From Chiloscyllium plagiosum (Eukaryota): a stretch of DNA of 64,000 nt. The stretch covers positions 30,766,085-30,830,084 of the forward strand of contig NC_057724.1 in the NCBI RefSeq assembly GCF_004010195.1. Direction: 5' to 3'. Below the pieces are notes generated by a model. It did no database searches. It saw only the letters and a list, made by a program, of their open reading frames with translations, and was not told the DNA's origin. Made by a program: the position numbers and the translations under genes. This document shows positions 1,582-61,326 of the stretch, piece after piece. How positions within the stretch are numbered: position 1 is the stretch's first letter; each line of letters starts with the position of its first letter.

Positions 1582-1926
<345 letters not shown>

Positions 1927-2089
1927 TCAAACAGAGTCGGATGATCAATTTGTCAGTTTCTTTTTGATTCAGATTGACACCATTTCTCTGCAGATTCAAA
2001 TGGATACATAGTTTTCAAATTAGCTTTTAAAATCATTAGTAACTAAACAAACATCACATTACATCAAATTTTTAAAAATATACTTTTTA

Positions 2090-2236
2090 TAGAACAGCCT
2101 CAGTTATACGAACATCAATCATCTGAATTTCAGATTATCCAAACACTATCTCAAGGTCCTGTAAAATCATTATCCGAACAGTTATCTGAACAAAATACTC
2201 TCTGCCCATCTCGTTAGATAATCATGGTTGTCCTGT
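2090..2236. mobile_element. Tigger/pogo-like MITE remnant
   Basis: Repeated TTATCCGAAC-type subterminal motifs and an inverted GATAATC end. Confidence 0.45.
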
Positions 2237-2674
2237 TTTTGTAGATATACAGAACAATCACACACATGTTGGGACATGATTTTCTTAGAATATACAGCAG
2301 TGCACTACAATCAGAACAACCAGTGTATGAAATAAGAAATATACTGAAACATCAGAGATAGTGGTGCAAGAGGATTGTTGTTGCTTTTCATTATTGGAAT
2401 CAAGAGCTCAAATCAAAATCCACAATGATTACATAAATGTTTTCTCCACTTAAGCGACTCCAATGTGACCTGATTGGGAATGGATGAAACATTTAGGCAG
2501 CAGACTGGAGACTAAACTGGTCCAATCTGGACAAGCTCGTGTAAGCAGTCAGAAAAATAAAATTCAAATTGAGGGACTCAACTTTATACAGCTAATAAAT
2601 AAAGTAGGAATTTTATTTTTCACCTAACGTGACGCTATTGAGCAAAAAGTAGTGTAAATTGTTGCTTATACCAA

Positions 2675-2730
2675 GGTTAGGATTCGACGTTTTCACCATC
2701 GCGGCCCAGGTTCGAATCCTGGTCAGGGAA
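2675..2730 (+). pseudogene. 5'-truncated tRNA-Glu(TTC) pseudogene
   Basis: GGTTAGGATTCGACGTTTTCACCATCGCGGCCCAGGTTCGAATCCTGGTCAGGGAA closely follows vertebrate tRNA-Glu from the D-loop to the 3' end; anticodon TTC 2692-2694; 5' acceptor strand missing; no CCA. Confidence 0.85.
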
Positions 2731-2879
2731 CAGGCACTGTTAAATTACATTCGTTAATGCATTATTGCTTACTCTTGATATTTTGAATGCAAACATTTGT
2801 GAATTTAAAATCATGTTTTGGATTCTGAGTAATCTAAGATGAATGACAGGAAAAATTTCTGGCTGTTAACAGCTGCTCC

Positions 2880-5800
2880 TTTTTTTTGAAGTATTTTAGG
2901 TGCTGAAGGTGATTTCCTTGAATTCCAGGAGCAGCTGTTAATATGCTGTTACATTGTTTTGGAACTTTGGAGGAAAAAAAAAGTCAAACCAGCAGTTTTA
3001 AAAGAAAGAAGACAAAGGAAACACATGGTGAGGTCAGTGCAGGAGAGAGAGAGATAAAGAAACTGACACTGCCTTTGCTGTTTGAATTCATGTATCGCTG
3101 GACATCGGAGTGAGAGTGGGAAAATTAACAAACAGTGAAATTCACAACTGATGTTGGAGGAACTGTTGGGTGAAGTTCACAGCACAGAAACAGATGAGTG
3201 TACTGTTGTCTTAAGCGTGACCTACAGAAAGGCTGCAGTAGTGAGTAGAATGGGTCGTTTCTTGATTGTATTTTTGGAGGTGTCTCTTGATGAAACTTAA
3301 AATATAAGTCATAACTATTAATTTAACCTGGGGCAGTGTTTGTAGAGGAATAAGACAATGTTATTTTCTGGGTCTATAAATTGTGAAGATGCAAGTAGAG
3401 TGAAATGTGCTTCTTGTCAAATGTGGGAGTTTAAAAGAGAGTTTAAGGAATACAGCGGATTATATCTGCCATAAATACTGTTTGTTGCGAATCTTATCGG
3501 ATTGAATGGATCAGTTGGAGAGACAGTTAGAAGCAATGAGGAATTTGCAACAACAATAATATGTGATGGATGGCAGTTATTGGAATGGGGGAAGTCTCCG
3601 ATACAGTCACATAGATGGGTTTACGCCAGGAAAGGTAGAGAGGTAGGCACTTAGTGCAGGAGTTTTTTTGGGCTAAACCCATTTCAAACAAGTATGCTGA
3701 CTTGGAAAATGTTGGGGGTTGGGGGGGGGGGGGGGGAACTGAATCTCAGGGGAATGTAGCACAAACAGCCAAGTTTCTGGTATTGCGACTAGCTCTAATG
3801 CAATGAGGAGTACATCGGCTTCCGAGAGTTCAACTGTGTTAGGGGATTCTCGAGATCAAGGTACAGACAGACGATTGTGGCCAGTAGCGAAAAATCAGAA
3901 TGGTGTGTTGCTTCCCTCGTGCCAGGATCAAAGATATCTCAGAGAGGGTGCAGAATGTTCTCACAGGGGAGAGGGGCCAGCAAGAGGTCATTGTCCACAT
4001 CGGAACTAACAACATAGGAAGGAAAAAGGTGGAGAGTCTGAAGGGAGATTACAGAGAATTAGGCAGGAATTTAAAAAGGAGTCATTGAGAGTAGTAATAT
4101 CTGGATTACGCCTGGTGCTGCGAGTTAGTGAGGGCAGGAACAGGAGGATACAGCCTCCTATGCATGGCTGAGGAGCTAGTGTATGGAAGAAGGATTCACA
4201 TTTTTGGAACATTGGAATCTCTCCCGGGGTAGAAGAAGTGACCTGTACAAGGAGGACAGATTGCACCTAAATTGGAAGGGGACTAATGTACTTGCAGGGA
4301 AATTTGCTGGAGATGCTCAGGAGGATTTAAAGTAGCAAGGGTGGGGGGGGGGGGGAACCCAGGGAGATAGTGAGGAAAGAGGTCAATCCAAGACTGACAC
4401 AGTTTAGAACAGAAGGGAGTCAAATAGTCAGGGCAGGCAAGGACACGGTAGGACGAAAATTATAAACTGCATTTATTTCAATGCAAGGGGCCTAACAGGG
4501 AAGGCAGATGAACTCAGGGCATGATTGGGAACATGGGACTGGGATATCATAGCAATTACCGAAACATGGCTCATGGATGGACAGGATTGGCAACTTAATG
4601 TTCCAGGATACAAATGCTACAGGAAAGATAGAAGGGGAGGCAAGAGAGGAAGGTGAGTGGCGTTTTTGATAAGGGATAGCATTACAGCTGTGCTGAGGTA
4701 GGATATTCCTGGAAATACATCCAAGGAGGTTATTTGGGTAGAACTGAGAAATAAGAAAGGGATGATTATTGCAATTGTATTATAGACCCACTAATAGTCA
4801 GAGGGAAATTTGAGAAACAAATTTGTAAGGAGATCTCAGCTACCTTTAAGAATAATAGTGTGATTATAGTAGGGGATTTTAACTTTCCAAACATAAATTG
4901 AAACTGCCATAGTGTTAAGGGTTTAGATGGAGAAGAATTTGTTAAGTGTGTACAAGAAAATTTTCTGATTCAGTATGTGGATGTACCTACTAGAGAAGGT
5001 GCAAAACTTGACCTACTCTTGGGAAATAAGACTGGTCAAGTGACTGAGGTGTCAGTGGGGGAGCACTTTGGGGCCAGCGACCATAATTCAATTAGATTTA
5101 AATTAGTGATGTAAAAGGATAGACCAGATCCAAAAGCTGCTGAAGTTCTAAACTGGAGAAAGGCCAATTTTGATGGTATTAGGCAAGAACTTTCAAAAGC
5201 TGATTGGGAGCAGATGTTCGCAGGAAAAGGCACAGCTGGAAAATTGGAAGCCTTCAGAAATGAGATAACAAGAATCCACAAAGTATATTCCTGTATACTT
5301 ACGAGGGGTATACTTACGAGGGAAATCAGGAGGGCAAAGAAGGGACATGAGATAGCTTTGGCAAACAGAATTAAGGAGAATCCAAAGGGTTTTTACAAAA
5401 ACATTAAGCACAAAAGCGTACCTGGGGAGAAAATAGGGCGCTCAAAGATCATTGAGGAGAAAGTGAGGTCTGCAGATGCTGGAGATCAGAGCTGAAAATG
5501 TGTTGCTGGAAAAGCGCAGCAGGTCAGGCAGCATCCAGGGAACAGGAGAATCGACGGCTTATGCGCTTTTCCTGCAACACATTTTCAGCCCCTCAAAGAT
5601 CAGCAAGGCAGCCTTTGTGTGGAGCCGCAAAAAATGGGGGAGATACTAAACGAGTATTTTGCATCGTATTTAATATGGAAAAGGATATGAAAGATATAGA
5701 TTACAGGGAAATAGATGGTGACATCTTGCAAAATGTTCAAATTACAGAGGAGGAAGTGCTGGATGTCTTGAAATGCATAAAAGGTGGATAAATCCCCAGG

Positions 5801-7310
5801 ACCTGATCAAGTGTACTCTAGAATCTGTGGGAAGCTAGAGAAGTGATTGCTGGGCCTCTTGCTGAGATATTTGTATCATCGATAGTCAAAGGTGAGGTAC
5901 TAGAAGACTGGTGGTTGGTTAACATGGTGCCACTGTTTAAGAAGAGTGGGGAGGACAAGCCAGGGAACTAGAGACCAGTGAGCCTGACGTCAGTGATGGG
6001 CACGTTGTTGGAGGGAATCCTGAGGGACAGGATGTACATGTATTTGGAAAGGCAAGGACTGATTCGGGATAGTCCACATGGCTTTGTGCATGGGAAATCA
6101 TGTCTCACAAACTTGATTGAGTTTTTTGAGGAAGTAACAAAGAGGATTGATGAGGGCAGAGCAGAAGATGTGATCTATATGCATTTTAGTAAGGCATTCA
6201 ACAAGGTTTCCCATGAAATTGATTAGCAAGGTTAGATCTCATGGAATACAGGAAGAACTAGCCATTTGGATACATAACTGGCTCAAAGATAGAAGACAAA
6301 GGATGATGGTGGAGGGTTGTTTTTCAGACTGGAGGTCTGTGACCAGTGGAGTGCCACAAGCATCGGTGCTGGGTCCTCTACGCTTTGTCATTTACATAAT
6401 TGATTTGGATGCGAGCATAAGAGATAGTTAGTAAGTTTGCAAATGATACCAAAATTGGAGGTGTAGTGGAAAGTGAAGAGCGTTACCTCAGATTACAACA
6501 GGATCTTGACCAGATGGGCCAATGGGCAAAGAAGTGGCAGATGGAGTTTAATTCAGATAAATGCGAGGTGCTGCATTTTGGGAAAGCAAATCTTAGCAGG
6601 ACATATACACTTAATGGTAGGGTCCTAGGGAGTGTTGCTGAACAAAGAGACCTTGGAGTGCAGGTTCATAGCTCCTTGAAAAAGTGGAGTCGCAGGTAGG
6701 TAGGATCGTGAAGGTGGTGTTTGGTATGCTTTCCTTTATTGGTCAGAGTATTGAGTACAGGGGTTGGGAGGTCATATTGAGGCTGTACAGGACATTGGTT
6801 AGGCCACTGTTGGAATATTGCATGCAATTCCGGTCTCCTTCCCATCAGAAAGATGTTGTGAAACATGAAAGGGTTCAGAAAAGATTTACAAGGATGTTGC
6901 CAGGGTTGAAGGATTTGAGCTATAGGGAGAGGCTGAACAGGCTGGGACTGTTTTCCTTGGAGCGTCAGAGGCTGGGGGGTGACCTTATGAGAGGCATGGA
7001 TAGGATAAGTAGGCAAAGTCTTTTCCTTGGGGTCGGGGAGTCCAGAACGAGAGGGCATAGGTTTAGGGTGAGAGGGGAAAGATATAAAAGAGACCTACGG
7101 GGCAACATTTTCACACAAAGGGTGGTACATTAATGGATTGAGCTGCCAGAGGAAGTGGGAGGCTGGTACAATTGCAACATTTAAGAGGCGTTTGGAGGGA
7201 TATGGGCCGGGTGCTGGCAGGTGGGAGTAGATTAGGTTGGGATATCTGGTCGGCATGGACGAGTTGGACCGAAGGGTCTGTTTCCAAGCTGTACATCTCT
7301 ATGACTCTAT
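2880..7310 (+). mobile_element. Near full-length, decayed CR1-clade LINE (family A, HER1-like)
   Basis: ORF1 remnants (Cys-rich start ~3400; SGNH esterase VCCFP.ARI...VIVHIGTNNIG 3900-4088), APE endonuclease (CIYFNARGL...IIAITETWL ~4460), RT pieces (SGVPQ.SVLGP, LEYC.QF.SP) and CTCTATGA tail; many stops and frameshifts. Confidence 0.92.
5452..5591. mobile_element. Fold-back Penelope pLTR mini-insertion inside CR1 ORF2
   Basis: 28-bp inverted arms 5491-5518 / 5562-5589 (1 mismatch); TSD CTCAAAGATCA at 5441-5451 and 5592-5602. Confidence 0.8.
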
Positions 7311-8163
7311 AACATGAACAGATTGTGAAATAAATGTGATAGCACACAAAGATGACAATGCAAGCATTACTTTCCAAGATGTTAGCTAAAATTTTGGGTT
7401 TATTTATTCTTCCATAGCATTACTGGTAAGGCCCACTAGACAGATCCCTAACAGTCCTTCAGCAGTCTTAGTAGGTTATTTCAGACAGCAGTTGCAAGTC
7501 AATCACATTCAACTCAGCAATCATATTCAGGGCAAACCAGACAAGGATAGCAGATTTCTCTCTCCTAAAAACTGTGAACTCTGTATTATGATTACAAAAA
7601 AAAGTCACTATTCGACAAGCTTTGGTTTCCAGATGCTATAAAAATCTTAAATTTTAGCATTCATTTCTCAGTCCCCACTACGTTAACCTGGGGTGCTGGC
7701 TTACCAGCCAAGTGACATTACCATGATGTCATCATCTTCTCTAAGCCTACCACAAATACTTCAGCTCCTTTAATACAGCTGATAGGAGTTGTATGGGTTG
7801 GTGGGGTAGGGTGGGGAGGTTGTTCTACCCTAAACCAGAAACTGAACTGCTTTAGCCATATCAACTGCACCTACAAGGCACAAGTCAGATGTATGATGGA
7901 ATACTGCCTACTTGCGTGGACGAATATTTAGGAGGCAGGGTGAGTAATTTTGCAGATAACACCAAAATTGGTGGTCTCGTTAATAGTGAAGGGTATCTAA
8001 GATTAGAAAAGTGATGTAGATCAATTGGGCCAATGGGCTGAAGAGTGGCAAATGGAATTTAATGTGGATAAATGCAAGGTTTTGCATTTTGGTAAAACAA
8101 AGACAGGACCTGTACATCAGGTTGAGGTTTAGGGTGTAGGTTTGCTTGCTGAGCTGAAGGTTT

Positions 8164-8213
8164 GATATCCAGACGTTTCATTACCTGGCTAGGTAACATC
8201 ATCAGTGGCGACC
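8164..8213 (-). ncRNA. Minimal hammerhead ribozyme motif (inverted copy; sense to SLAIN pre-mRNA)
   Basis: Reverse complement has the same core and stems as 10964-11013; predicted cleavage between 8172 and 8171. Confidence 0.8.
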
Positions 8214-10963
8214 TCCAAGTGAAGCGAAGCTGTTGTCTCCTGCTTTCTATTTATATCTTTCTCCAGGATGGGGTTCCTGGGGTTTGTGGTGATGTCATTT
8301 CCTGTTCGTTTTCTATGTGGTTGATAGATGGTATCGAGATCTGTGTGTTTGTTTATGGCATTGCGGTTGGAGTGCCAGGCCTCTGGGAATTCTCTAGCAT
8401 GTCTTTGCTTAGCCTGTCCCAGGATAGGTGTGTTGTCCCAGTCGAAATGGTGGTTTTTTTTAATCCCTCTCTGTGTGTAGGGCGACGAGGGAGAGGGGGT
8501 AGTGTCTTTTTGTGGCTAGCTAGTGTTCGTGTATCCTGGTGGCTAACTTTCTTCCTGTTTATCCTATGTAGTGTTTCTGGCAGTCTTTGCATGGAATTTT
8601 GTAGATGACGTTGGTTTTGTCCATGGGTTGTACTGGGTCTTTTAAGTTTGTTAGTTTTTGTTTGAGTGTTAGTGGGTTTGTATGCTACTAGGATTCCGAT
8701 GGGTCTTAGTAGTCTGGCTGTCATTTCTGAAACTGCTTTGATGTATGGTAAGGTGGTTAAGGTTTCTGGCTGTGTTTGGTCTGCTTATCGTGGTTTGTTC
8801 TTGAGGAATCTGCGCACTTTTTTTTTTGAGTATCCGTTCTTCTTGGTTCTTCTCTGTTTTCCAAAGTTCGTCTGTGCTGCAGTGTGATGTGGTTCATTGG
8901 AAGTGTTCTGATACAGCTTCGTTTGTGTGTGTTGGGATGGTTGCTGGTGTAGTTAAGTATTTGGTCAGTGTTTGTCGGTTTTCTGTATACGCAGGTTTGT
9001 AGTTCTCCATTGTCCGTTCTTTCAACTGTGATGTCCAGGAATGGGAGTTTGCTGTTGGTTTCTTCCTCCTTGGTGAACTAAATTTCAATTACTGAGATGC
9101 TGACAAGGATTTCCTAGCGGCATTAGAAACCACATTGAAGGATAACAAACTCCTGGAAGAAACACAACAAGCGATCACACAGACAGTTGCACCTACTCTG
9201 AGCCGAAAGAGGGAAGGAAACAAACTGAACACACGAGAAAAGAAAGCCCTAGAAAACCTTAAAAAATACAAAAACATCGTTATATTACCTGCAGACAAAG
9301 GTCGGCTCACAGTCATCCTGAACAGAAGGGACTACATAGAGAAAGCCAAGGCACTACTCGCAGACACCAACACTTACCAACAGGTGGCGCTAGACCCGAC
9401 CCCCACAATTAGGAAACAAAATTACATATCTCCTAAGAAAATTACACAATTCCGGACAATTAAACAAGATGGAATTCCAAAAAAAAATGAAACCCGACGG
9501 GACCAACACCCCACGATTCTACGGTCTACCAAAAATCCATAAACCAGGAGCCCCCCTCAGACCCATTGTCTCACTACCCGGAACACCAACTTACAGACTG
9601 GCCAAAGAACTATACGCAAGACTGAAATACCTAGAAGAGTCACAGCACTCCACCCACGAATTCCTAGAAATCATCAAAAACACCAAAACAGAGGAAGACG
9701 AAACAATGATCTCATTGGACGAAACAGCACTGTTCACCTCCATCAACATCGACCTGGGAAAGGAAACACTTGCCACACTTTTAGAAGAGACCATCACACA
9801 CACCCCCAACCACCATCAATCACATTACCAATGAAAACATCATGAAGCTAGTGGACCCACCACCACCCACCCACTTCACCTTCAACAACATAATCTACAA
9901 ACAAACCAACGGCACCAGGAGTTTGTTATCCTTCACCCATGGGATCTCCGCTATCAGGATTCATAGCAGAAACGGTAATGCAAAGACTAGAACAAACAGC
10001 CCTACCAACCATCAAACCAAAAATCTGGGTCCGCTACGTAGATCTCACCTTTGTCATCACAAAACGAAACAAGATAGAAGAGACATTTATCATCATCAAC
10101 AACACCCTCACAGGCATAAAGTTCACCAAGGAGGAAGAAACCAACAACAAACTCGCATTCCTGGACGTCACAGTCAAAAGAACGGACAACGGAGAACTAC
10201 AAACCTGCAAATACAGAAAACTGACAAACACTGACCAAATACTTAACTACATCAGCAACCATCTCAACACACACAAACGAAGCTGTATCAGAACACTATT
10301 CCAATGAGCCACATCACACTGCAGCACAGACGAACTTTGGAAAACAGAGGAGACCCACCTATACAACGTATTCAAGAAGAAAGGATGCTCAAAAAAAAAA
10401 AGAGTGTGCAGATTCCTCAAGAACAAACCACGACAAGCAGACCAAACACAGCCAGAAACCATAACCACCTTACCATACATCAAAGAAGTTTCAGAAATGA
10501 CAGCCAGACGACTAAGACCCCTCGGAATCCTAGTAGCACACAACACTCTCAAACAAAAACTAACAAACTTAAAAGACCCAGTACATCCCATGGACAAAAC
10601 CAACGTCGTCTACAAAATTCCATGCAAGGATTGCCACAAACACTACGTAGGACAAACAGGATGAAAGTTAGCCACCAGGATACACGAATACCAGCTAGCC
10701 ACAAAAAGACACGACCCTCTCTCCCTGGTAGCCCTACACACGGAGGGAAAAAAAACCACCATTTCGACTGGGACAGGCTAAGCAAAGACATGCCAAAGAA
10801 TTCCTAGAGGCCTGGCACTCCAACCACAACGCCATAAACAAACACAGATCTAGATACCATCTATCAACCCCTCAGAAAATGACATCACCACAAACCGCAG
10901 GAACCCCATCCAGGACAAACATATAAATAGAAAGCAGGAGTCAACAGCTTTGCTTCACTTGGA

Positions 10964-11013
10964 GATCGCCACTGATGATGTTACCTAGCCAGGTAATGAA
11001 ACGTCTGGATATC
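10964..11013 (+). ncRNA. Minimal type I hammerhead ribozyme motif in a Penelope pLTR
   Basis: CCA-CTGATGA-T-GTTACCT(AGCC)AGGTAAT-GAAA-CG-TC^TGG: intact core, stem II, palindromic ACGT stem III, GUC triplet, stem I CCA/TGG plus GAT/ATC. Confidence 0.8.
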
Positions 11014-12034
11014 AAACCTACAGCTCAGCAAGCAAACCTACACCCTAGGACTTGTACAGTTAATGGTAGGGCCATGAGTAGTGCTGTCAGAGAGACGTAG
11101 GAGTTCGGGTACATAGCTCTTTGAAAGTTGCATTACAGGTAAACAGGGTGGTCAAGAAAGCACTTAGCTTGCACTGATTGCTCAGATCATTGTATATCCG
11201 AGTCAGGACATCTGTGGAGTTTGTACAGGACGTGGCCGAGGCAGAGGCCACATTTTGGAGTACTATGTACAGTTGTGGTCACCCTGCTATTGAATGATAT
11301 TAAATTGGAGAGGGTTCAGAACAGATTTGCACATGCACCTACTTGTACTTCCATTCATTTGAATGTTATGAACACATGATTTGCGGTGAAGTGTACAGTC
11401 TAGAATGAACTACATCGTTACTCACATTCCTAAAGAAATACTTCACCGATCCTATCCATATTTATTCAATTGCTTTTGTGGATAATGTTTGTACCCCAAA
11501 TCTCTACTTGTGCAAAAGGGCATATGTAATTTTTATAAATCAGCAGGCAAATTATAAAACATTTTCCAAATGACCCACTAATAAAACTCCAAAAGACAAC
11601 ATGGAAATGGAATACAATTACTGAAAAAAAAACGAGAGGACATGCAAAAAGTGTCCACAGAAGTCAAAAATCAAGAATGGTCAAGTTGGCAAAAAGAATT
11701 TGGACAAAATAGCTTTACAAAACAAGAAAGTATTTCTACTTGGCCCTTTCCTAGTTTTTCTTTGTTTGAAACACACTGATCCACATTGACAAATTCGAGA
11801 TTTATTTTTATTTGATAATTTTGTACAAAATCTACACATCCCAATTTATTAGAAACTGCATTCCCTTTACCTTGTACGGTACAACTGATGGAAAAGAGGC
11901 ATTGTAGAATTTAAGTCCACTTAAGACATGAATTTGCAAGTTTAGAGGAGTTTGCAAAGATTGCCTTGAGATGCAATTCAAAATCCTTTCCACTCTGACA
12001 CTAAGACACACAAATGGAAATCGGGACATAACAC

Positions 12035-12122
12035 TCGTGCTTCACCATAGGCTCACCGATGTTACCTAGCATGAAACGGCTGAAAACAAACCTTCCAGCG
12101 CAGTGAGCAAACTTACAACCTG
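12035..12122 (+). mobile_element. Degenerate solo Penelope pLTR
   Basis: Similar to the 10950-11046 terminus (GATGTTACCTAG...GAAACG...GAGCAAACTTAC). Confidence 0.6.
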
Positions 12123-12819
12123 AAATTCAGAACCCTCTGAAACCGGACTTCTGACAGAACTAGGGACTCTATCCAGAGGTTTCCAGATACCAGATACTCG
12201 CCCTTGGAAATTTCAACTTGCCAGCCAAATATCATGTAATCCATGCATCGGGACTTTGAAAAATCCAAATAAAGATCTTCCTGGGTAATGGTCTGGACTT
12301 TCCTGACAGCAAAACATCTGTGCGTTGCTTTCCACTGCATCCAGGTTTTGCGACATTGTTAAAAATCCTCTCTGTCTGTATATATCCCAGATTCTCATTT
12401 TTATTTTGCTTTAGTCATTTACAGGGATCAAATTACAAAACTATTCTCAATTACCAAGCCAAAATTAACTATTGACTCAAGTCTTTCAATAGTTTAAGAA
12501 CATTTCATGTACTGCTTAAAGAGAAAATAATATCAGTAACTTTTCCTGTCAAAATCTTGCCCAGCAAAATCAATATTAACACTGCAGAGAGATTTTCAAT
12601 ATGAAGAATGAAAATGCAAGTTAATTATTAGAGAGTTCCCAGCATCTATGAAATTACTTTATTAAAAGGTCAGTAACTTATGAAGAAAATGGTACACAAA
12701 AATTCAAAGTCATGCATGAAAATATAATACCCACTTCAATTAAGAATCAGAAAAAAAACTGAGGCATAATATTCTTTAGAATATTTGGATAAGCTTGACA
12801 ATAGATTATCGATCATAAG

Positions 12820-12960
12820 ACAGGCTCAGTTGGCTGGATGGCTGATTTGCAACACATGGGTTTATTTTCTGCATTAGCTGAGATTATCGTGAAGGACTCT
12901 CCTGCTCAACCTCTCTCCTCACCTAGCCCTATAGTCTGGTAGGACTATGATGATTTTACT
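12820..12960 (+). mobile_element. Unclassified tRNA-like SINE fragment (related copy 31473-31645)
   Basis: Shared CAACCTCTC...GCCCTAT..TCTGG.A.GACTATG blocks in both copies. Confidence 0.5.
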
Positions 12961-13249
12961 GTTACTTATCATAAAATCTACTTTGGCACTATATACAGCA
13001 TTGCCGCAGTCTCTTGAATTTGGGATTAGAAAAAATAGCTTAAAAGCTTGAAAGATAATCAGCATTTTAAACTAAACACATTACAATTTGCTAAGTGGCT
13101 CGAGCATAAATTGCATCTATAAATCCTGAATTTATGTAGGTGTAGAGAAAAAAATTAAGTGAATTCAGGTGGAACTTCAAACTATAATTTTGTCAGTGAA
13201 AATAAAAATAACTTAAATTTAGAATTAACATACATCTACCTGTATGTTA

Positions 13250-13569
13250 AACTTTATCCGAAATCCAAAAAGCTACAAAATCTGAAGGTTTTTAAAAATC
13301 TCATTAACAAGGTTGTTTGGTGTACAAACAGTTAACCCAAATCCACACCCACTCGATGCATGTCATTCAGATGTGATTGGGGCATGGCCCAGTACTGGCA
13401 GGCCTCAATTCTGTCTCAGGGCCTGTAGTACTCACCATGTCTGCTGTTCACTAAGGTTTTTTTTTAATTTCTCCGTTGAACTGTCACTTATTCTGAAATT
13501 CAAAAGAAATTCTGAATTCCGAAAACCAGCTGGTTCTGAGCATTTCAGATAAAGGATTGTGTACCTGTA
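13250..13569. mobile_element. Tc1/mariner (Tigger-like) MITE remnant
   Basis: TATCCGAAATCC-type repeats; right end TTTCAGATAAAGGATTGTGTACCTG-TA. Confidence 0.5.
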
Positions 13570-13689
13570 ATTATTTTCACTACAAATTCATTCACCCTCA
13601 ACTACAATAGAAACAATAATAGTCATAAACAGAAACCTGTCCAACAGATTAAAGACATTATCTATAACCATCACCAAATCACAAAGCTA

Positions 13690-14190
13690 GCGTACAGGTT
13701 CAGAGGTAATAGGGAAGGCAAATGGAATGCTGGTCTTGATTTCCAAAAAGAATGAAATATGAAAAGAGGGAACTCTTACTAAAATTATATTAGGTTCTCA
13801 TCAGATCACAGCTGGATTATTGTGAACAGTTTTAGACCCCTTTTCTAAAGGGGAGATATGCTGGCACTGGAGGCAGACCAGAAGGTTCAATGGGCTGATT
13901 TCGGATAAGAAGGGACCCTTATGGAGGAGAGGTTAGGCCTGTACTGAGTTTAAAAGAATGAAGCAACCTTATTGAAACATACAAGGTTCATAGCACAAAA
14001 GATGGTTTCCCTGTGTGAGAGTGCCTAGAACCAATGGGTCTAATCTCAGAATAAGGGGTCACCCTATCAAGACACAGATTAGGAATTTCTTCTGAGGATT
14101 GAATGTTTTTAGAATTGTTTAACCACAGAGGGCTGTACAGCTTAAGTTGGTCAGTATAAACAAGACTGAAATACACGTTTTTGAAATAAT
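13690..14190 (+). mobile_element. CR1-clade LINE ORF2 fragment (family B)
   Basis: Degenerate GKANGML..., LDYCEQF..P motifs. Confidence 0.65.
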
Positions 14191-15846
14191 CAAGTAACCG
14201 CAACATAATAGCTTTTTTCACACAAACCAAAAGCTTTTACTTTTCTTGTGCCTTTTTCATGGCAACCCGATCCAACTGGAAAAACTTGGAATCTATAAAT
14301 TGCTAGAAAAAAATTCAGCAGGTCTGGCAGCATCAGTGAAGAGGAAGCAGAGTTAACATTTCAGTTCCAGTGACCCTACTTCAACAAGAGATTCACAAAT
14401 GTTGCTTGTAAACAAAAAGACAGACATTGAATTATTCAAACCGACACAGAATCAATAACCTATTCATTCATTGTTTGTTGCAATGGTTAATTGTTGTAAA
14501 GGTAACGCTAAAGGCACTTAGTTCATTTATTTCCCAGAAAAGATATCATGAAATCCAACTACACCTCTTGGACTAAGATCAGAAGAATACCCTTTATGCT
14601 CCTTTACAAAACTTGATATAGCCTTCGGCAACCATACTGGAACAGATTTTTTTTTTAAAATTGGCTTTTTAAATATAACTCTGCAATTTGCTTTTAATGC
14701 ATAGATAATTGGATTAGAGCAAGCACTCATTTATAATGAAAATCACAAATGACAAACATTGCACTCTAATTTTTAAAATCAATACATGATTTTGATAGAA
14801 TAGATCAATTGTTTTCTTAACTCAGTGCATCATAAATTTCAACACTGAATTATTCAAGTCACAAAGGATCTCCATTCAGTTTGTAACTTGGAAGTTAAAC
14901 GAACTTTGTTATTCTGTTTTGCAACTCACTAAGGGAGCAACAATTTGTGTTAGCATTCTTACATCCAGTGATCCTGCTCACTCTTATTTCATTTTAGAGA
15001 TTATATGCTGATCTATGTTAAAGACATAAGATTCAGAGATAAATGTCTCAAGGTCAAACATTTCTGACATTCATCACCAGGGCTCACACTGAATAAACAG
15101 TAAATTAATAAGGTACAGCAGCAGAGCCACGGAAGCGTATTTTAAAATGAGTTTGTGCCTTCAGTAACAATACGGTCATAAGCTATGTCCTACTTTTAAA
15201 TCTTCAACTGGAAGATCACAAAGCTTAGAATAAACAAAAATGTTTAATCATAATTTCATATGGACAGCAGACAATAATTTTCTCTTGCACATTAATAATT
15301 GCATTTAAGATAGTTTTGGAAGAATAAAGGAAATATTAGTAAATGCAGACAGTAGATTTTGACAATTTTTAATTTAGGAAAACACTCCTTACGGAGGACC
15401 CAACTGCTGAATTGATAACAGTACATTGCTAGTTTGATGCACTGCATTCCATTTAATATACCTTCATGCAATCAAAACAAGTTGAATCCAAGATCAAGAG
15501 GAAAATGTTGTGAAAGCTAACTAATACTGTTACAGTTTTGTACCTTTAGTTTCTAATTTAAGATTCAATTTTGAAAGGAATATAACATGCAAATTTTATA
15601 ACTTTTTCATTTTTGAGGCATAATAATATGCAAATATCTGAGACTAAGATCAGTGAGTTTTCACCAAAGCCATGCAGTGAAACAAAAAGCAACATCCATC
15701 ATGCATTATTTTCAATTTCACACTGATGAAATCTGGAAGCTCTAACAGAACATGCATCAGTCTGTACAAAGTTTTTAAAAAGCATTGTTAACGTTTTAAA
15801 ATACTTTACAGGATCCACACTTCATTAATGGACAGGTGTACCATAC

Positions 15847-15996
15847 CTGAACTGCCATAGGTTAGTACTGGTTTAGTAGATGTTTTGAGGAAACCAGAAG
15901 AGTTTGAGAGATTGCTACACGAAGTGACATCTGTATTGGAGCTATAAGCACAGGTTGAAGCAAACGGAGTGCAATAGATGTTTCTCCATCTGTTGG
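15847..15996 (-). CDS. SLAIN-family protein, coding exon 3
   Basis: Pyrimidine tract + CTAG acceptor, CTAAC branch point at 16027-16031, CAG|GTATGG donor; 150 nt, phase 1-1, open frame ANRWRNIYCTPF...KPVLTYGSS that joins exons 2 and 4 in frame. Confidence 0.8.
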
Positions 15997-17009
15997 CTAG
16001 AGTGGAAAAGCAAAAATGCATGCACAGTTAGATATGAACACAACAGACACAGTCTGTATTGACAGTGCACATTAAAAAGAAATCTAGCTCTACTGTAGAT
16101 GTACTTTTATGTTTGTTGAGGCTAGGTTACTGCCCTCAATGCTGCAACGAGTTAGTTCATAACTGATATGGCAGGCTGTAGTTTGGATGGAAAAGCTAGC
16201 AACTTGCTCCTTACAACTCGAGACGTTGGAGTAAGTGGGTCACCAGAAGTGGGTGGATTAGCTAATTACATACTGATCACAATATGAAGATACTAAAGTA
16301 ACAAAGCAAACTCTACCACATCATACCAAGTAACATTTATTAGAAACAATCTTCCATGAGCTACCAAGGCTGCATTAGTCATTAATACTGCTACAAATTA
16401 TGATTGGCTCAAATGCTGGCATGCTTAAAAGGTTGCAAGTTCAAACCCCACTGAAGGACTTTCATGCATAATCTAAATAGACACTAGTGCAATACAAAGG
16501 ATGCATGTGGAAGATCTCTCCAAGCAATGTTCTATTTCCACATGCCAGTGCACATTCCAAAAGTTTTGGCAAGATTTAAAGAACAGGTAGTCCTTCTGAA
16601 ATCCTGGCCACTCTGCTTCCTTCAAATCAAAGTGAAATTAATTGGTCATATTTTTACTTGCAACTACTTTAAAATTCACCTTTTTCTAGGGTTATGACAT
16701 TATTTTATAGGATAGACCCAATGGTGCAAAAATAATTCAATGTATTTGGGAATGTGTACAACTGCAAAGTTGAGCTCATTTCATTTGTCTTGGTTGGCTG
16801 CCAAAGTTGGTTGCTCAGGATGACCTTTGCGACTTCACCAAGTTCTTTTGCACTTCTAGAAAATTCCACAGAGTCTTCTTGGGTGCAGGAATTCCCCGCG
16901 AACTGTACATGCCCGGGCAGCAAGTCTTTGAAATTCATACCTGGCATAGTGCAAAGCTTGCTCCAAATAGATATTCAATAGGCTGACAGACTCTAAAGCC
17001 TTCAGGATA

Positions 17010-24959: not shown

Positions 24960-26640
24960 AACCTCCTGGACAAGCAGAACAGACAACAACGGGGAACCTA
25001 TCAACAAGGACTGCTTACTCAAACTACTAGACTTGCGTTTGACGTCACTTCACATTCAACAACCAAATATACAAACAGCTCAGTGGAACACCTATGTGCT
25101 TACCAATTTCTGGGCAAATAGCAGAAGTAGTGATGCAAAGACTGGAATAAACACCTCTCCCACAAATCCAACCCAAACTCTGGATCAGATAAGTGGACGA
25201 CACTTTTGTTATCATTAAGAGAACAGAAATTTCACGCGCACACACACCGGATCATCAATACCATGCTCACAGGGATCACATTTACAAGAGGAAGAAACCA
25301 ACAATCAAATCCCATTCCTGGACGTGATGGTAGAAAGAACATATAATGGTAAATGCATCAAAGTGTACAAGAAAACCATATGCACATGCCGACCAGGCCC
25401 TGAACAACACAGAAACCACAAACACACACAAGAGATGCTGCATTGGGACCCTGTACAAAAGGGCAAAAAACATTGCAACACTCCCGACCTATGAAGGGAA
25501 TAACCCCTCTACAGAGTATCCACCAACAATGTATATCCCCGCAACTTCATCTGCAGATGGCTAACAGACGAACAAGGCGACAAGGAAATGCCACTATCCA
25601 TGCTACCTTACATGAAAAGGTCTCAGAACTGACAGCCGGACTTCTCCGACCATTGGGATTCAAAAGAACCCATAAACCAATAGCCAGGCTCAGACAACTC
25701 AAATTCTGGATTAGTGATGCTGGAAAATCACATCAGTTCAGGCAGTATCCGAGGAGCAGTAAAATCCTGCGGTGGCAGGGGAGGGTGCCAGGACGGGAGG
25801 GTGGGTTGTGGGGGGGGGGCGTGGACCTGACCAGGTAGTCACGGAAAACCTGTGCCCACACCACCTCCCTCACCTCCATCCAAGGCCCTAAAGGAGCCTT
25901 CTACATCCATCAAAGTTTTACCTGCACATCCACCAATATCATTTATTGTATCCGTCGCTCCCGATGCGGTCTCCTCTACATTGGGGAGACTGGATGCCTC
26001 CTAGCAAAGCGCTTTAGGGAACATCTCTGGAACACCCGGACCAATCAACTACACAACCCTGTGGCCGAACATTTCAACTCCCCCTCCCACTCTGCTGAGG
26101 ACATGGAGACTCTGGGCCTCCTTCACCATCGCTCCCTCACCACCTGACGCCTGGAGGAAGAACACCTCATCTTCTGCCTCGGAACACTTCAATCCCAGGG
26201 CATCAATGTGGACTTTAACAGTTTCCTCGTTTCCCCTTTCCCCCACCTCACCCTAGTTCCAAACTTCCAGCTCAGCACTGTCCCCATGACTTGTCCTACC
26301 TGCCTATCTTCTTTTCCACCCTCCTCCCTGACCTATCACCTTCACCCCCTTCCCCACTCACCTATTGTATTCTATGCTACTTTCTCCCTACCCCCACCCT
26401 CCTCTCATTTATCTCTCCATCCTTCAGGCACTCTGCCTGTATTCCTGAAGGGCTTTTGCCCGAAACGTCGATTTTACTGCTCCTCGGATGCTGCCTGAGC
26501 TGCTGTGGTTTTCCAGCACCACTAATCCAGAATCTGGTTTCCAGCATCTGCAGTCATTGAGCTATCTGAGGTAAAAACAAAGCAGAAGACCCTATACCCA
26601 TCACTTGCAAGACAAACGCAATTTACAAGATATCCTGAAC
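24960..26640 (+). mobile_element. Decayed Penelope element containing a nested second-family fold-back Penelope (25703-26560)
   Basis: Host RT motifs (WIR.VDDTFVI, IPFLDVMV, NTHKRCCIGTL); insert has GIY-YIG (IIYCIR.SRCGLLYIGET...VAEHFN), inverted arms 25703-25766 / 26470-26533 and a damaged hammerhead at ~26445-26470. Confidence 0.85.
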
Positions 26641-32259: not shown

Positions 32260-32920
32260 GATAACCATGCGGTTCTGTTTGGCAGCACTTACCAGCTGTC
32301 TTCTTCCACAGTCCCGAAGTCCGGTTCCAGCTCTAGGATATCCTCCTCCAGATAAACCGGCGGCGGCTGCTCTTCACCCCCCTCCGAGCAGCACCTGGCG
32401 ACCCCGGGGAGGACGGTACTCAACAATGCCTCGCAGTCGGCCAGAAGCGGGTCACCGGGACTCAGCTCCACGTCCAGGACATCAGGGGCGGACCCGATCA
32501 GATCGCCGTTAGCCGGAGGGGGCGGCCTGTCCCCGCCGCCAGTGAGCGCCTTCCCCCCGCGGCCGCTCCGACACCGGAGCTGCTCATTCTGCAACTCCAG
32601 CTTTTTGACCAAATCCTGCAGCTTTTTGACCTCCTTGTCTGCGTCGAGCAGCGGTGTGACGATGGCAGCCGCGCATCCCGAGCCGTTTGGTGCCCCCGGA
32701 TCAACTCCCGCCTCGGGCTCGCTTGAACTCGGTCCCACCATTTGTTGGCCAGTGGCATTCACAGACCGACCGCTCGCATCACCATCAGCTTCACCACCAT
32801 CGCCGCCACCATCTTAGATAAAGACGACCTCTGACACTCACTTTGGGCATGCGCAGACCCCTGGTGTGACCGGGGGCGCATGCGCGGTCACCGCGAGCCG
32901 AGATTGGCGCCAAATTGGAG
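32260..32920 (-). promoter_or_regulatory. CpG island / SLAIN promoter with NRF1, E2F-like, CCAAT and YY1-like motifs
   Basis: CpG-dense in a CpG-poor background; NRF1 palindrome GCGCATGCGC at 32876-32885 plus a partial GCATGCGCA ~32848; TTGGCGCCAA ~32904-32913; ATTGG at 32903 and 32914; AAGATGGTGGCGG (YY1-like) ~32803-32815 on the minus strand. Confidence 0.8.
32293..32741 (-). CDS. SLAIN-family protein (SLAIN2/SLAIN-like), coding exon 1
   Basis: First in-frame ATG at 32741 (CAAATGG; in-frame stop upstream at 32814-32816). Encodes the SLAIN N-terminal coiled coil DADKEVKKLQDLVKKLELQNEQLR; ends EEDS-TG|GTAAGT donor; lies in a CpG island. Confidence 0.9.
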
Positions 32921-38077: not shown

Positions 38078-38113
38078 ATTCCTGAAGAAGGGCTCATGCC
38101 CGAAACGTTGATT
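38078..38113 (+). ncRNA. Minimal hammerhead-like motif in a Penelope pLTR (third family)
   Basis: CTGAAGA-A-GGGC(TCAT)GCCC-GAAA-CG-TT^GA; core intact, stem I weak. Confidence 0.6.
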
Positions 38114-43363: not shown

Positions 43364-43696
43364 CTATTTTGATCTAGTGAGGTACGTGAAACTTTGAACT
43401 GTATACTTGATGCCTTCAGTCAGAGAAACAACAGGTTTATATCCTAGATCTTTCTTTGCTCTTTCACAACTGTAGTAGTGGAATGTTCCAGCTAATGCTA
43501 CTCGCATGGGAGTGAATGTAGGTTTAATGGTCACAATTGGCTTTAATAGCAACACCAAAATTGAGAGGAAAAAGGCCAAATAATAAGCCAGCAGATATGG
43601 AATGTGATACTTTGGAGGATCATAATTTAGTCCAACTAAAATTTCAGACAAGAATGTCCAAAAGGGAATTGGTTCATCATTTGTGATATGGTAGGC
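43364..43696 (-). CDS. NSDHL: NSDHL last coding exon (sterol-4-alpha-carboxylate 3-dehydrogenase, decarboxylating)
   Basis: [33 protein letters not shown]...[29 protein letters not shown]...LTRSK-TAG; the seven exons sum to 1035 nt = 344 aa + stop, with an intact frame. Confidence 0.97.
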
Positions 43697-53645: not shown

Positions 53646-54704
53646 TGAGTAAACAAACAGGAGGCTGGAAGAACACAGCAAGCCAGGCAGCATGAGCAAG
53701 TGGAGAAGTAGATGTTTTGGCTGTAACTCTTCTTTAGGAAGAGGGGTGGGAGTATGAGGAGCTGCAGATGAAGGAGGAGTGGGTGGGGGATGTGGAGAGG
53801 GGTTATGGATGGAAGAGTGGCGTAGTGGTGAAATACAACCTGGTTGGTCGATAGGAGGAATAATCAGATTGGTAGCTAGAGGGGGTCTGTTGGAGACGGA
53901 CCTGGAAAGGAAGTTGGGAGATGGGTGGGAAGGTGATTTGAAATTGGAGAACTCAATGTTGAGTCCTCTGGGCTGGTTGACTGCCCAGACAGAAGATGAG
54001 GTGTTGTTCCTCCAATTTGCAGTCTGATTCATTGGAGCAATGGAGGAGACAGAGGATGGACATGCGGAGAAAGCCCCAAACAGTCCTTCAGGTGAGACAG
54101 AGGTTCACCTGCCTCTCCTCCAACCTAGTTTATTGTATCCGGTGCTCCCAATGTGGTCTTCTCTACATCAATGAGACCAAATGTAAACTTAGGACATGTT
54201 GCGCCGAGCGCCTCAGCAGTGCCCACAAGGGCCAGCCTGACCTCCCTATCATCATCCATTTCAATATCCATTCCGACATGGACTCATCCATTGGCACAAT
54301 GAATCAGATTGCACATTAGAGGAACAACATATCATCTACCTGGGCAGCCAACATTGAGTTCTCCAATTTCAAATAACCTTCCCACCCATTCCCTGACATG
54401 CTTTCGAGCCCCACCTCCTCTCCTCCAACCATTTCCTTCTGCTACCAACCCGATTCATTCCTCCTATCGACCCACCAGATCATACCAACCACCTGTATCC
54501 CTACTTCACCACTTTGTCCCCTCCCCACCCATAACCCTTCATGTCCCCTTTATCTGCAGGTCCACCTACCCCCACCCCCATTCCTGAAGAACGGTTATAT
54601 CCGAAAGTCAACTTCTCTATCTCCTGATGTTGCCTGGCTTGCTGTGTTCTTCCAGCCTTCTGCTGGTTTACTTTGGACTTGGGCATCTGTAGTTTTTTTG
54701 GTCA
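53646..54704. mobile_element. Fold-back Penelope element in NSDHL intron 1
   Basis: Inverted arms (~53650-54060 vs ~54300-54670), GIY-YIG FTCLSSNLVYCIRCSQCGLLYINET, degenerate hammerhead 54584-54609, TSD GTATATCTGTA at 53635-53645 / 54705-54715. Confidence 0.85.
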
Positions 54705-60903: not shown

Positions 60904-61326
60904 CTTAGCGGGTTTTGAGAAGATTTGTAGCTCAGGTTGAGGTTCTGGATGTAGGTTTGCTTGCTGAGCTGGAAGGTTTGTTTTCAGACGTTTCGTTACC
61001 ATACTAGGTAACATTGTTAGTGAGCCTCTGAATGAAGCACTGGTGGTGTAGCCCGCTTTCTATTTGTATGTTTGAATTTCCTTTGGATGGTGACATCATT
61101 TCCTATGGTGATGTAATTTCTTGTTCCTTTTCTCGGGGGGTGGGGGGTGGTAAATGGGATCCAAGTCAATGTGTTTGTTGACAAAGCTCCAGTTGAGAAT
61201 TCCTAGAAGCGTGGCATTCCATGGCACCACCAGTGCTTCATTCGGAGACTCGTTGAAGATGTTACCTAGTACAGAGACAAAACATCTGAAAATGAACCTT
61301 CCAGCTCAGCGAGAAAACCTGCATCC
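60904..61326. mobile_element. Fold-back Penelope pLTR element
   Basis: Arms ~60945-61050 / ~61225-61326 with two decayed hammerheads; TSD ATATACTTCA at 60894-60903 / 61327-61336. Confidence 0.85.

What the first reader, a model, noticed from the sequence alone, without database searches (positions are those of the whole stretch)
8117..11046. Fold-back Penelope insertion puts a hammerhead ribozyme and its own antisense copy in one SLAIN intron
Seen: ~0.95-kb inverted arms (roughly 90% identical by eye) around a ~1-kb spacer, a 12-bp TSD, and the same intact hammerhead core at each outer end (8164-8213 minus, 10964-11013 plus). Known: Penelope pLTRs carry minimal type I hammerheads that generally cleave well only as dimers, and inverted 5' copies occur in PLEs. 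Inference: SLAIN pre-mRNA (minus strand) carries one sense ribozyme, preceded ~2.8 kb earlier by its complement. The long hairpin could sequester the ribozyme, making such insertions tolerable in introns in either orientation, and would also be an ADAR / endo-siRNA substrate.
Basis: partly seen in the sequence, partly recalled or inferred. Interest (0 to 1): 0.72.

Follow-up and report, generated by a model that had tools for sequence, protein, structure and literature searches.

The report
Ordinary fold-back Penelope insertion in intron
This 2.9-kb mirror-image stretch in an intron of a shark SLAIN-like gene is a broken copy of a Penelope-type jumping gene in a shape that is common in this genome, and its lone ribozyme is predicted to be inactive with or without the hairpin, so the hairpin is likely a by-product of how the element inserts, not a safety catch.

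Summary
The anatomy is confirmed: two 3' ends of a Penelope/Poseidon retroelement joined head to head (arms 94% identical), a 12-bp target duplication in a CR1 LINE, an intact minimal hammerhead core in each arm, inside a 14-kb intron of a minus-strand SLAIN-like gene. The 'spacer' is the element's own decayed RT region. The shape is published for Penelope-like elements and common here: 55 of the first 100 exact ribozyme-core matches lie in such fold-backs. The sequestration idea is not supported: the motif has no loop 3 and needs a second sense copy, which no transcript of a fold-back offers; related monomers do not cleave in vitro; after insertion the core decays like its flanks (3.8% vs 4.5-5.2%, not significant). 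ADAR editing is plausible but untested: no usable reads. The informative by-product is mechanistic: 68 of 69 fold-backs carry the tail on exactly one arm, and either arm can be the longer, which fits two separate primings from the two cut strands. The scan has noted this architecture and this reading many times before, in this genome and others. This copy stands out only for its long arms.

The parts
8105..8116 (+). Left copy of the 12-bp target-site duplication, inside a CR1-like LINE fragment
   Evidence: CR1-like flanks in register with the copy at 6427-6890
8117..8130 (-). Shortened 'tail' (14 nt; about 25-44 nt in most other copies), present only on this arm
8130..9079 (-). Inverted 5'-truncated copy: end of RT/thumb, GIY-YIG region and pLTR; reads sense in the host pre-mRNA
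   Evidence: alignment; frames
8172..8205 (-). Minimal type I hammerhead core, sense in the host pre-mRNA; predicted cut 8172/8171
9077..9080 (.). Head-to-head junction with a 3-nt microhomology (ACT)
   Evidence: comparison with L001, L042, L059, L027
9080..11046 (+). Longer 5'-truncated copy, no tail: DKG motif, RT, thumb, GIY-YIG, pLTR; broken by frameshifts and stops
9915..9935 (-). Private 19-nt insertion that is an inverted copy of 9136-9156
   Evidence: (I10)
10972..11005 (+). Second hammerhead core, antisense in the host pre-mRNA
11047..11058 (+). Right copy of the target-site duplication (one mismatch)
1798..15844 (-). Host intron of the SLAIN-like gene (14,047 nt)

Best explanation
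This is a broken, head-to-head insertion of a Penelope/Poseidon-type retroelement in an intron of a SLAIN-like gene, likely made when both strands of a 12-bp staggered cut primed reverse transcription on the element's RNA, and its single sense ribozyme is predicted to be inactive in the host transcript. Shown: anatomy, TSD, one-sided tail, microhomology junction, abundance, neutral-looking decay. Inferred: one nicked strand primes at the distal start site (giving the tail), the other at the proximal site; both cDNAs stop early and are joined at their ends by microhomology; the arms then drift apart. Predicted: if the intron is transcribed, the arms pair into a long duplex that ADAR would edit, as a passive consequence. 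The duplex would bury the ribozyme, but this likely changes little, because the motif needs a second sense copy, and perhaps the element's protein, to cleave.
For: Published anatomy: inverted 5'-truncated copy and one-ended tail are typical (PMC8557442; PMC3846280). Poseidon protein nicks and extends both strands and starts RT at two sites that bound the tail (PMC11167929). Here: 69 fold-backs (window included) and 62 unpaired ends among 128 loci plus the window; one tailed and one untailed arm in 68 of 69, none tailed twice, while unpaired ends are 30 tailed, 32 untailed; tailed arm reaches further in 25, untailed in 22, both hold private sequence in 10, equal in 11 of 68; TSD of 10 bp or more in 59 of 69 against a mean of 1.7 in 15 shuffles; arms of one insertion share minority alleles at 103 of 14,887 non-CpG sites (0.69%) against 0.29% (max 0.42%) in 300 shuffles, yet differ at 4.5%. 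Ribozyme core differs between arms at 26 of 690 sites against 247 of 4,726 elsewhere (p 0.11) and 75 of 1,667 in near flanks (p 0.50) in 22 fold-backs not chosen by the core.
Against: The tail threshold was moved from 20 to 25 after seeing the scores; at 20 the count was 63 one-tailed, 4 double-tailed, 1 untailed, 1 cut by N; the four re-called ends score 20-23 and real tails 30 or more. Measured against the column majority the core looks conserved (38 of 1,902 vs 563 of 14,669, p 2e-5), which I attribute to variation among source elements. Frangieh et al. saw no difference in start site between strands in vitro, so the strict pairing is not yet reproduced. Shared alleles cannot separate one RNA molecule from one source locus or some gene conversion. 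This copy's tail is atypically short. Ribozyme inactivity is extrapolated from other species.
Confidence: 0.72

Rival explanations
1. One reading: the ribozyme would cut the host pre-mRNA, and the upstream antisense arm sequesters it, so fold-back copies are tolerated in introns where sense solo copies are not.
For: Geometry and duplex strength are as claimed. Both cores are intact here, as in 7 of 22 fold-backs. Intact cores in 23 of 44 fold-back arms vs 6 of 16 unpaired ends, not significant. Tandem hammerhead retrozymes are under-represented in Xenopus introns (10.64898/2026.07.22.740005, passages), so active multimers may be selected against.
Against: No loop 3, so no monomeric fold; only one sense copy in the window's minus strand; monomers of this type did not cleave and the Anolis ribozyme needed protein, with no reads ending at its site; core decays like flanks; arms are not kept complementary (5.2% non-CpG differences here vs 4.5% average).
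Confidence: 0.08
2. The inverted arm arises by self-priming or snap-back: one cDNA, or an antisense template, folds back and is copied (self-priming on an antisense template is proposed in PMC3846280).
For: Arms share alleles more than chance, including 8 private ones against a null mean of 0.42. Published proposal.
Against: A copied arm must lie within its template. The untailed arm extends beyond the tailed arm in 22 of 68 cases (1,040 nt here), and the tailed arm holds a tail the other lacks. Junctions differ from locus to locus.
Confidence: 0.13
3. Two independent insertions at one site, or a later inversion or recombination between neighbours.
For: Arms differ by 52 substitutions and 13 gaps.
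Against: One TSD bounds the unit; 8 divergent pairs and no convergent pair among the first 100 listed core matches; strict one-tail rule; divergence typical of the family's age.
Confidence: 0.04
4. The inversion is an assembly artefact.
For: No listed contig piece spans the unit; pieces across the inner junction (X1, 9002-9106) and right end (X4, 11019-11327) reach only 27 and 28 letters on one side, under the tool's 31. No long reads were available.
Against: Arms have distinct substitutions and indels, no N in the unit, a TSD, continuous CR1-like host, and the same architecture at 68 other loci.
Confidence: 0.03

Closest known systems
Endonuclease-positive Penelope-like element insertion with inverted 5'-truncated copy, one-ended tail and TSD (PMC8557442 Fig. 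2 legend; Adineta vaga Pen2/Pen2a in PMC3846280; passages read)
   Same: Head-to-head inverted ends, tail at one end only, short TSD, RT then GIY-YIG, hammerhead in the pLTR.
   Different: Arms are long (950 nt, the longest shorter arm of 69 sampled); tail shortened to 14 nt; TSD 12 bp against 8-10 bp in the rotifer examples; no tandem pLTR at the 5' side.
Poseidon of Anolis carolinensis, PAc (PMC11167929; parts 1-2 of 4 read)
   Same: Same clade by domain order; two RT start sites bounding a tail; both strands nicked and extended; ribozyme not needed for insertion.
   Different: The paper does not link the two start sites to inverted insertions and saw no strand difference in start site; here the two sites are paired one per end.
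Minimal type I hammerheads of metazoan PLEs (PMC4209133; passages read)
   Same: Conserved core, extra base before helix II, palindromic positions 15.2-16.2, no loop 3.
   Different: Activity of this shark-type variant is untested.
Hyper-edited inverted repeats; Penelope is heavily edited in lizard and Xenopus tropicalis (PMC5625713, PMC10636886; passages read)
   Same: Long near-perfect intramolecular duplex within one intron.
   Different: Editing at this locus not shown; the passages seen do not trace Penelope editing to the built-in fold-back.
L1 twin priming (recalled, no paper read)
   Same: Second target strand primes a second cDNA; microhomology junction; TSD.
   Different: In L1 the inverted piece is an upstream, non-overlapping part; here both pieces copy the same 3' end.

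Membership tests
EN+ Penelope-like element (Penelope/Poseidon) | PLE-type RT with upstream DKG motif | tested here: met
   DKG and RT motifs in frames of 9080-10300; RVT_1 weak, E 0.008, under cut-off; 20 relatives at E<=1e-30, most with PF00078
EN+ Penelope-like element (Penelope/Poseidon) | C-terminal GIY-YIG endonuclease | tested here: met
   VVYKIPCxxC...YVGQTG seen directly; PF01541 E 0.012, under cut-off, read with X at the stop
EN+ Penelope-like element (Penelope/Poseidon) | Hammerhead motif in the pLTR, optional tail, TSD, inverted 5'-truncated copy | tested here: met
EN+ Penelope-like element (Penelope/Poseidon) | Placement in Poseidon rather than Neptune clade by RT phylogeny | not tested
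   No tree built; no extra cysteine cluster between RT and EN by eye, which fits Poseidon (PMC8557442)
EN+ Penelope-like element (Penelope/Poseidon) | Intact single ORF (autonomous copy) | tested here: not met
   5'-truncated, several frameshifts and stops
Minimal type I hammerhead | CUGANGA and GAAA boxes, NUH site, stems I and II | tested here: met
   stem I 3 bp plus 3 bp after a 2x2 loop; stem II in the predicted fold; Rfam gives no match
Minimal type I hammerhead | Helix III able to close within one molecule | tested here: not met
   A-C-G-U, no loop; dimer-type by PMC4209133
Minimal type I hammerhead | Self-cleavage | not testable with these tools
   needs an in vitro assay or end mapping
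Non-LTR retrozyme | Tandem same-strand hammerhead repeats without coding sequence | tested here: not met
   one core per strand, RT and EN remnants between
ADAR-edited inverted repeat | A-to-I changes in locus-specific RNA reads | tested here: inconclusive
   X21: zero depth in unique intron bins, 98% of 1,016 laid reads run on into other loci; X22: none laid

The most novel reading that the evidence does not exclude
Two-ended Penelope insertions come with their own antisense arm, which shields the ribozyme from the trans partner or element protein that would activate it; fold-backs therefore escape selection in introns that removes sense solo copies, and become the main self-pairing source of edited dsRNA from Penelope elements in sharks, lizards and frogs.
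Probability: 0.08. Interest if true: 0.6.

Novelty: new member of a known kind. Interest (0 to 1): 0.24.

Why it matters
As a locus it matters little: an old, broken insertion 4.8 and 6.3 kb from the nearest exons. As a family sample it bears on an open question that the PLE literature names, how inverted ends and the one-sided tail form: the one-tail-per-insertion rule makes a sharp prediction for the existing Poseidon in vitro system. It also offers a simple reason why Penelope ranks among the most edited repeats in lizard and frog: a large share of insertions (about 40% here by my estimate) would pair with themselves.

Tried and rejected
Rfam scan of the window: 0 matches. Protein search of the RT fragment in phages: no match, irrelevant. 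Run search listed no RNA holder on record. RNA lay: X21 had no depth in unique intron bins and X22 laid nothing, so editing and ribozyme ends are untested; differences over the arms come from other copies and also stand in X7. DNA lay: joints skipping the unit (8103-11047) appear in several runs but can come from other CR1 copies, so no empty site is claimed; presence in organisms B and C is undecided. Apparent conservation of the core against the majority vanished in arm-against-arm counts. Template editing as a source of shared alleles: 1 of 15 rare shared changes is A>G, so not seen in this family. Idea that this exact fold-back spreads as a unit (similar span at L042): rejected, junctions differ. 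Intronic orientation bias: no annotation. Exon-tethering literature: only a reference-list entry seen, not used. The dimer-cleavage paper of Lunse et al. 2017 was not read (search 45 listed only citing papers). Arm extents use the window's plus copy as query, whose private indels break BLAST hits, so extensions under about 30 nt are not counted.

Full report
Observation. The left arm (8130-9079, minus) aligns to the right arm (10120-11047, plus) at 854 of 906 bases with 13 gap openings. A 12-bp duplication with one mismatch bounds the unit at 8105-8116 and 11047-11058, and the flanks continue one CR1-like fragment in register with a neighbour (family name recalled). The 34-nt hammerhead core is identical in both arms, with the predicted cut at 8172/8171 on the minus strand. 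The stretch between the arms is not foreign: 9080-11046 is one 5'-truncated plus-strand copy with DKG, RT, thumb and GIY-YIG remnants, broken by frameshifts and stops. The two copies meet at their 5' ends over a 3-nt microhomology. The left end has 14 nt of the family's tail; the right has none.

Host. The first exon (32289-32810, minus) is 95% identical to proteins named SLAIN motif-containing protein-like from bamboo and epaulette sharks. Two of them place exons at 32741, 26837, 16015 (present in one isoform), about 1800, 899 and 217 on the minus strand. The element lies 4.8 kb and 6.3 kb from the flanking exons. Contigs of 2 of 4 runs join 15845 to 1797 with canonical ends, on short sides of 26 and 30 letters.

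How common. An exact 37-nt core pattern has 1,695 matches in the genome, 0 for the reversed control. I fetched 128 loci: 39 of the 41 rows of a similarity search with the last 347 nt (the self hit and a 33-nt partial hit left out) and the places of the first 100 of 1,695 pattern matches, all on contigs C1 and C2. With the window they hold 69 fold-backs and 62 unpaired 3' ends. Of the 100 pattern matches, 55 lie in 47 fold-backs, 8 with both cores exact. Correcting for two chances of being sampled gives, by my arithmetic, about 38% of insertions and roughly 1,600 fold-backs of this family; this is a rough estimate. This copy is second of 69 in span and first in length of the shorter arm, though assembly gaps probably hide other long ones. 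Both cores are catalytically intact in 7 of 22 and exact in 4 of 22 fold-backs not chosen by the core, so two intact cores are unremarkable.

How it likely forms. One arm is tailed and the other not in 68 of 69 fold-backs at a score threshold of 25, chosen after seeing a gap between 23 and 30; at the first threshold of 20 the count was 63, with 4 double, 1 none, 1 cut by N. Unpaired ends split 30 to 32. A TSD of 10 bp or more is found in 59 of 69, against 1.7 in shuffles. The tailed arm reaches further in 25, the untailed in 22, both hold private sequence in 10, and 11 are equal. Where the untailed arm is longer, as here by 1,040 nt, neither arm can be a copy of the other, which disfavours snap-back. 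Arms of one insertion share minority alleles 2.4 times more than shuffled pairs (103 of 14,887 sites; 8 private against 0.42) but still differ at 4.5%: a common template, then drift. Frangieh et al. (PMC11167929, parts 1-2 of 4 read) showed that Poseidon protein nicks and extends both strands and starts at two sites bounding the tail. The inference is that each cut strand uses one of the two sites. They saw no strand difference in start site, and one RNA against two RNAs of one locus cannot be told here.

The ribozyme. Helix III is A-C-G-U with no loop. Cervera and de la Pena (PMC4209133, passages) describe such motifs as dimer-dependent, with no cleavage of a single motif and low cleavage of dimers. 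The Anolis ribozyme did not cleave without protein and left no read ends in RNA-seq. A transcript through a fold-back carries one sense copy, and a relaxed scan found no second one of this family on the minus strand of the window. So there is likely little to sequester. After insertion the core changes at 26 of 690 sites between arms, against 247 of 4,726 elsewhere and 75 of 1,667 nearby (p 0.11, 0.50). Against my reading: measured against the majority the core looks conserved (p 2e-5), intact cores are 23 of 44 in fold-backs and 6 of 16 in unpaired ends (p 0.39), and tandem retrozymes are depleted in Xenopus introns (bioRxiv 10.64898/2026.07.22.740005, passages; supplements not available).

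The duplex. The outer 200 nt pair at -337 kcal/mol and the arms hold 14 perfect runs of 21 bp or more. Penelope is heavily edited in lizard (PMC5625713) and Xenopus tropicalis (PMC10636886; passages), and elephant shark shows abundant hyper-editing. Editing here is therefore plausible, but the RNA runs gave no locus-specific reads.

Artefact check. No piece spans the unit; two contigs cross the inner junction and the right end by 27 and 28 letters, under the tool's bar of 31. The TSD, the distinct arms and the recurrence make an artefact unlikely.

What is known. The inverted 5'-truncated copy and the one-ended tail are described as typical (PMC8557442; PMC3846280; passages). I found no paper giving the strict pairing or paired priming in three searches, but the library lacks older subscription papers. 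This scan has noted the architecture in 366 findings across at least 38 genomes, and several unchecked notes, in this genome too, reach the same two-ended priming reading. I had stated that reading before the first look-up; their agreement is not independent evidence.

Verdict. Real, of a known kind, and probably inert. Interest 0.24.

Noticed in passing
window 9915-9935: 19-nt insertion in the RT region that is an inverted copy of 9136-9156, near the junction; absent from the 11 other copies shown. Looks like a templated repair patch.
   Followed up: partly
window 60947-61326: Older, short fold-back of a related Penelope family with decayed ribozyme cores and a tail on the left arm.
   Followed up: partly
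window 25839-26560 (+): GIY-YIG-like frame (YCIRRSRCGLLYIGETG) of another, probably Neptune-type, element in a SLAIN-like intron, antisense to the gene; a Poseidon-like fragment lies at 25118-25340.
   Followed up: no
window 38082-38109 (+), 54584-54609 (+): Two further hammerhead-like motifs of another repeat family.
   Followed up: no
window 43364-43696 (-): Frame resembling the last exon of NSDHL (name recalled; Pfam gave no hit), upstream of the SLAIN-like gene.
   Followed up: no
window 15845-16015 (-): Exon present in one isoform of the relatives (P0002) and absent from another (P0001): alternative exon just upstream of the intron with the insertion.
   Followed up: partly
L008, L024, L066, L077, L082, L109, L124: Inverted pieces that lack the element's 3' end, scored as unpaired; either later deletions or internal priming as in L1.
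   Followed up: no
L013, L025, L027, L030, L037: Fold-backs with extra internal fragments or deletions at the seam, suggesting template jumps.
   Followed up: no
L058:6611: The one fold-back scored with no tail has an end that looks like a tail with its middle deleted between two short repeats.
   Followed up: partly
run X7 on window 1797/15845: A run of unrecorded kind carries both intronic contigs and the spliced joint; it may be total or nuclear RNA.
   Followed up: no
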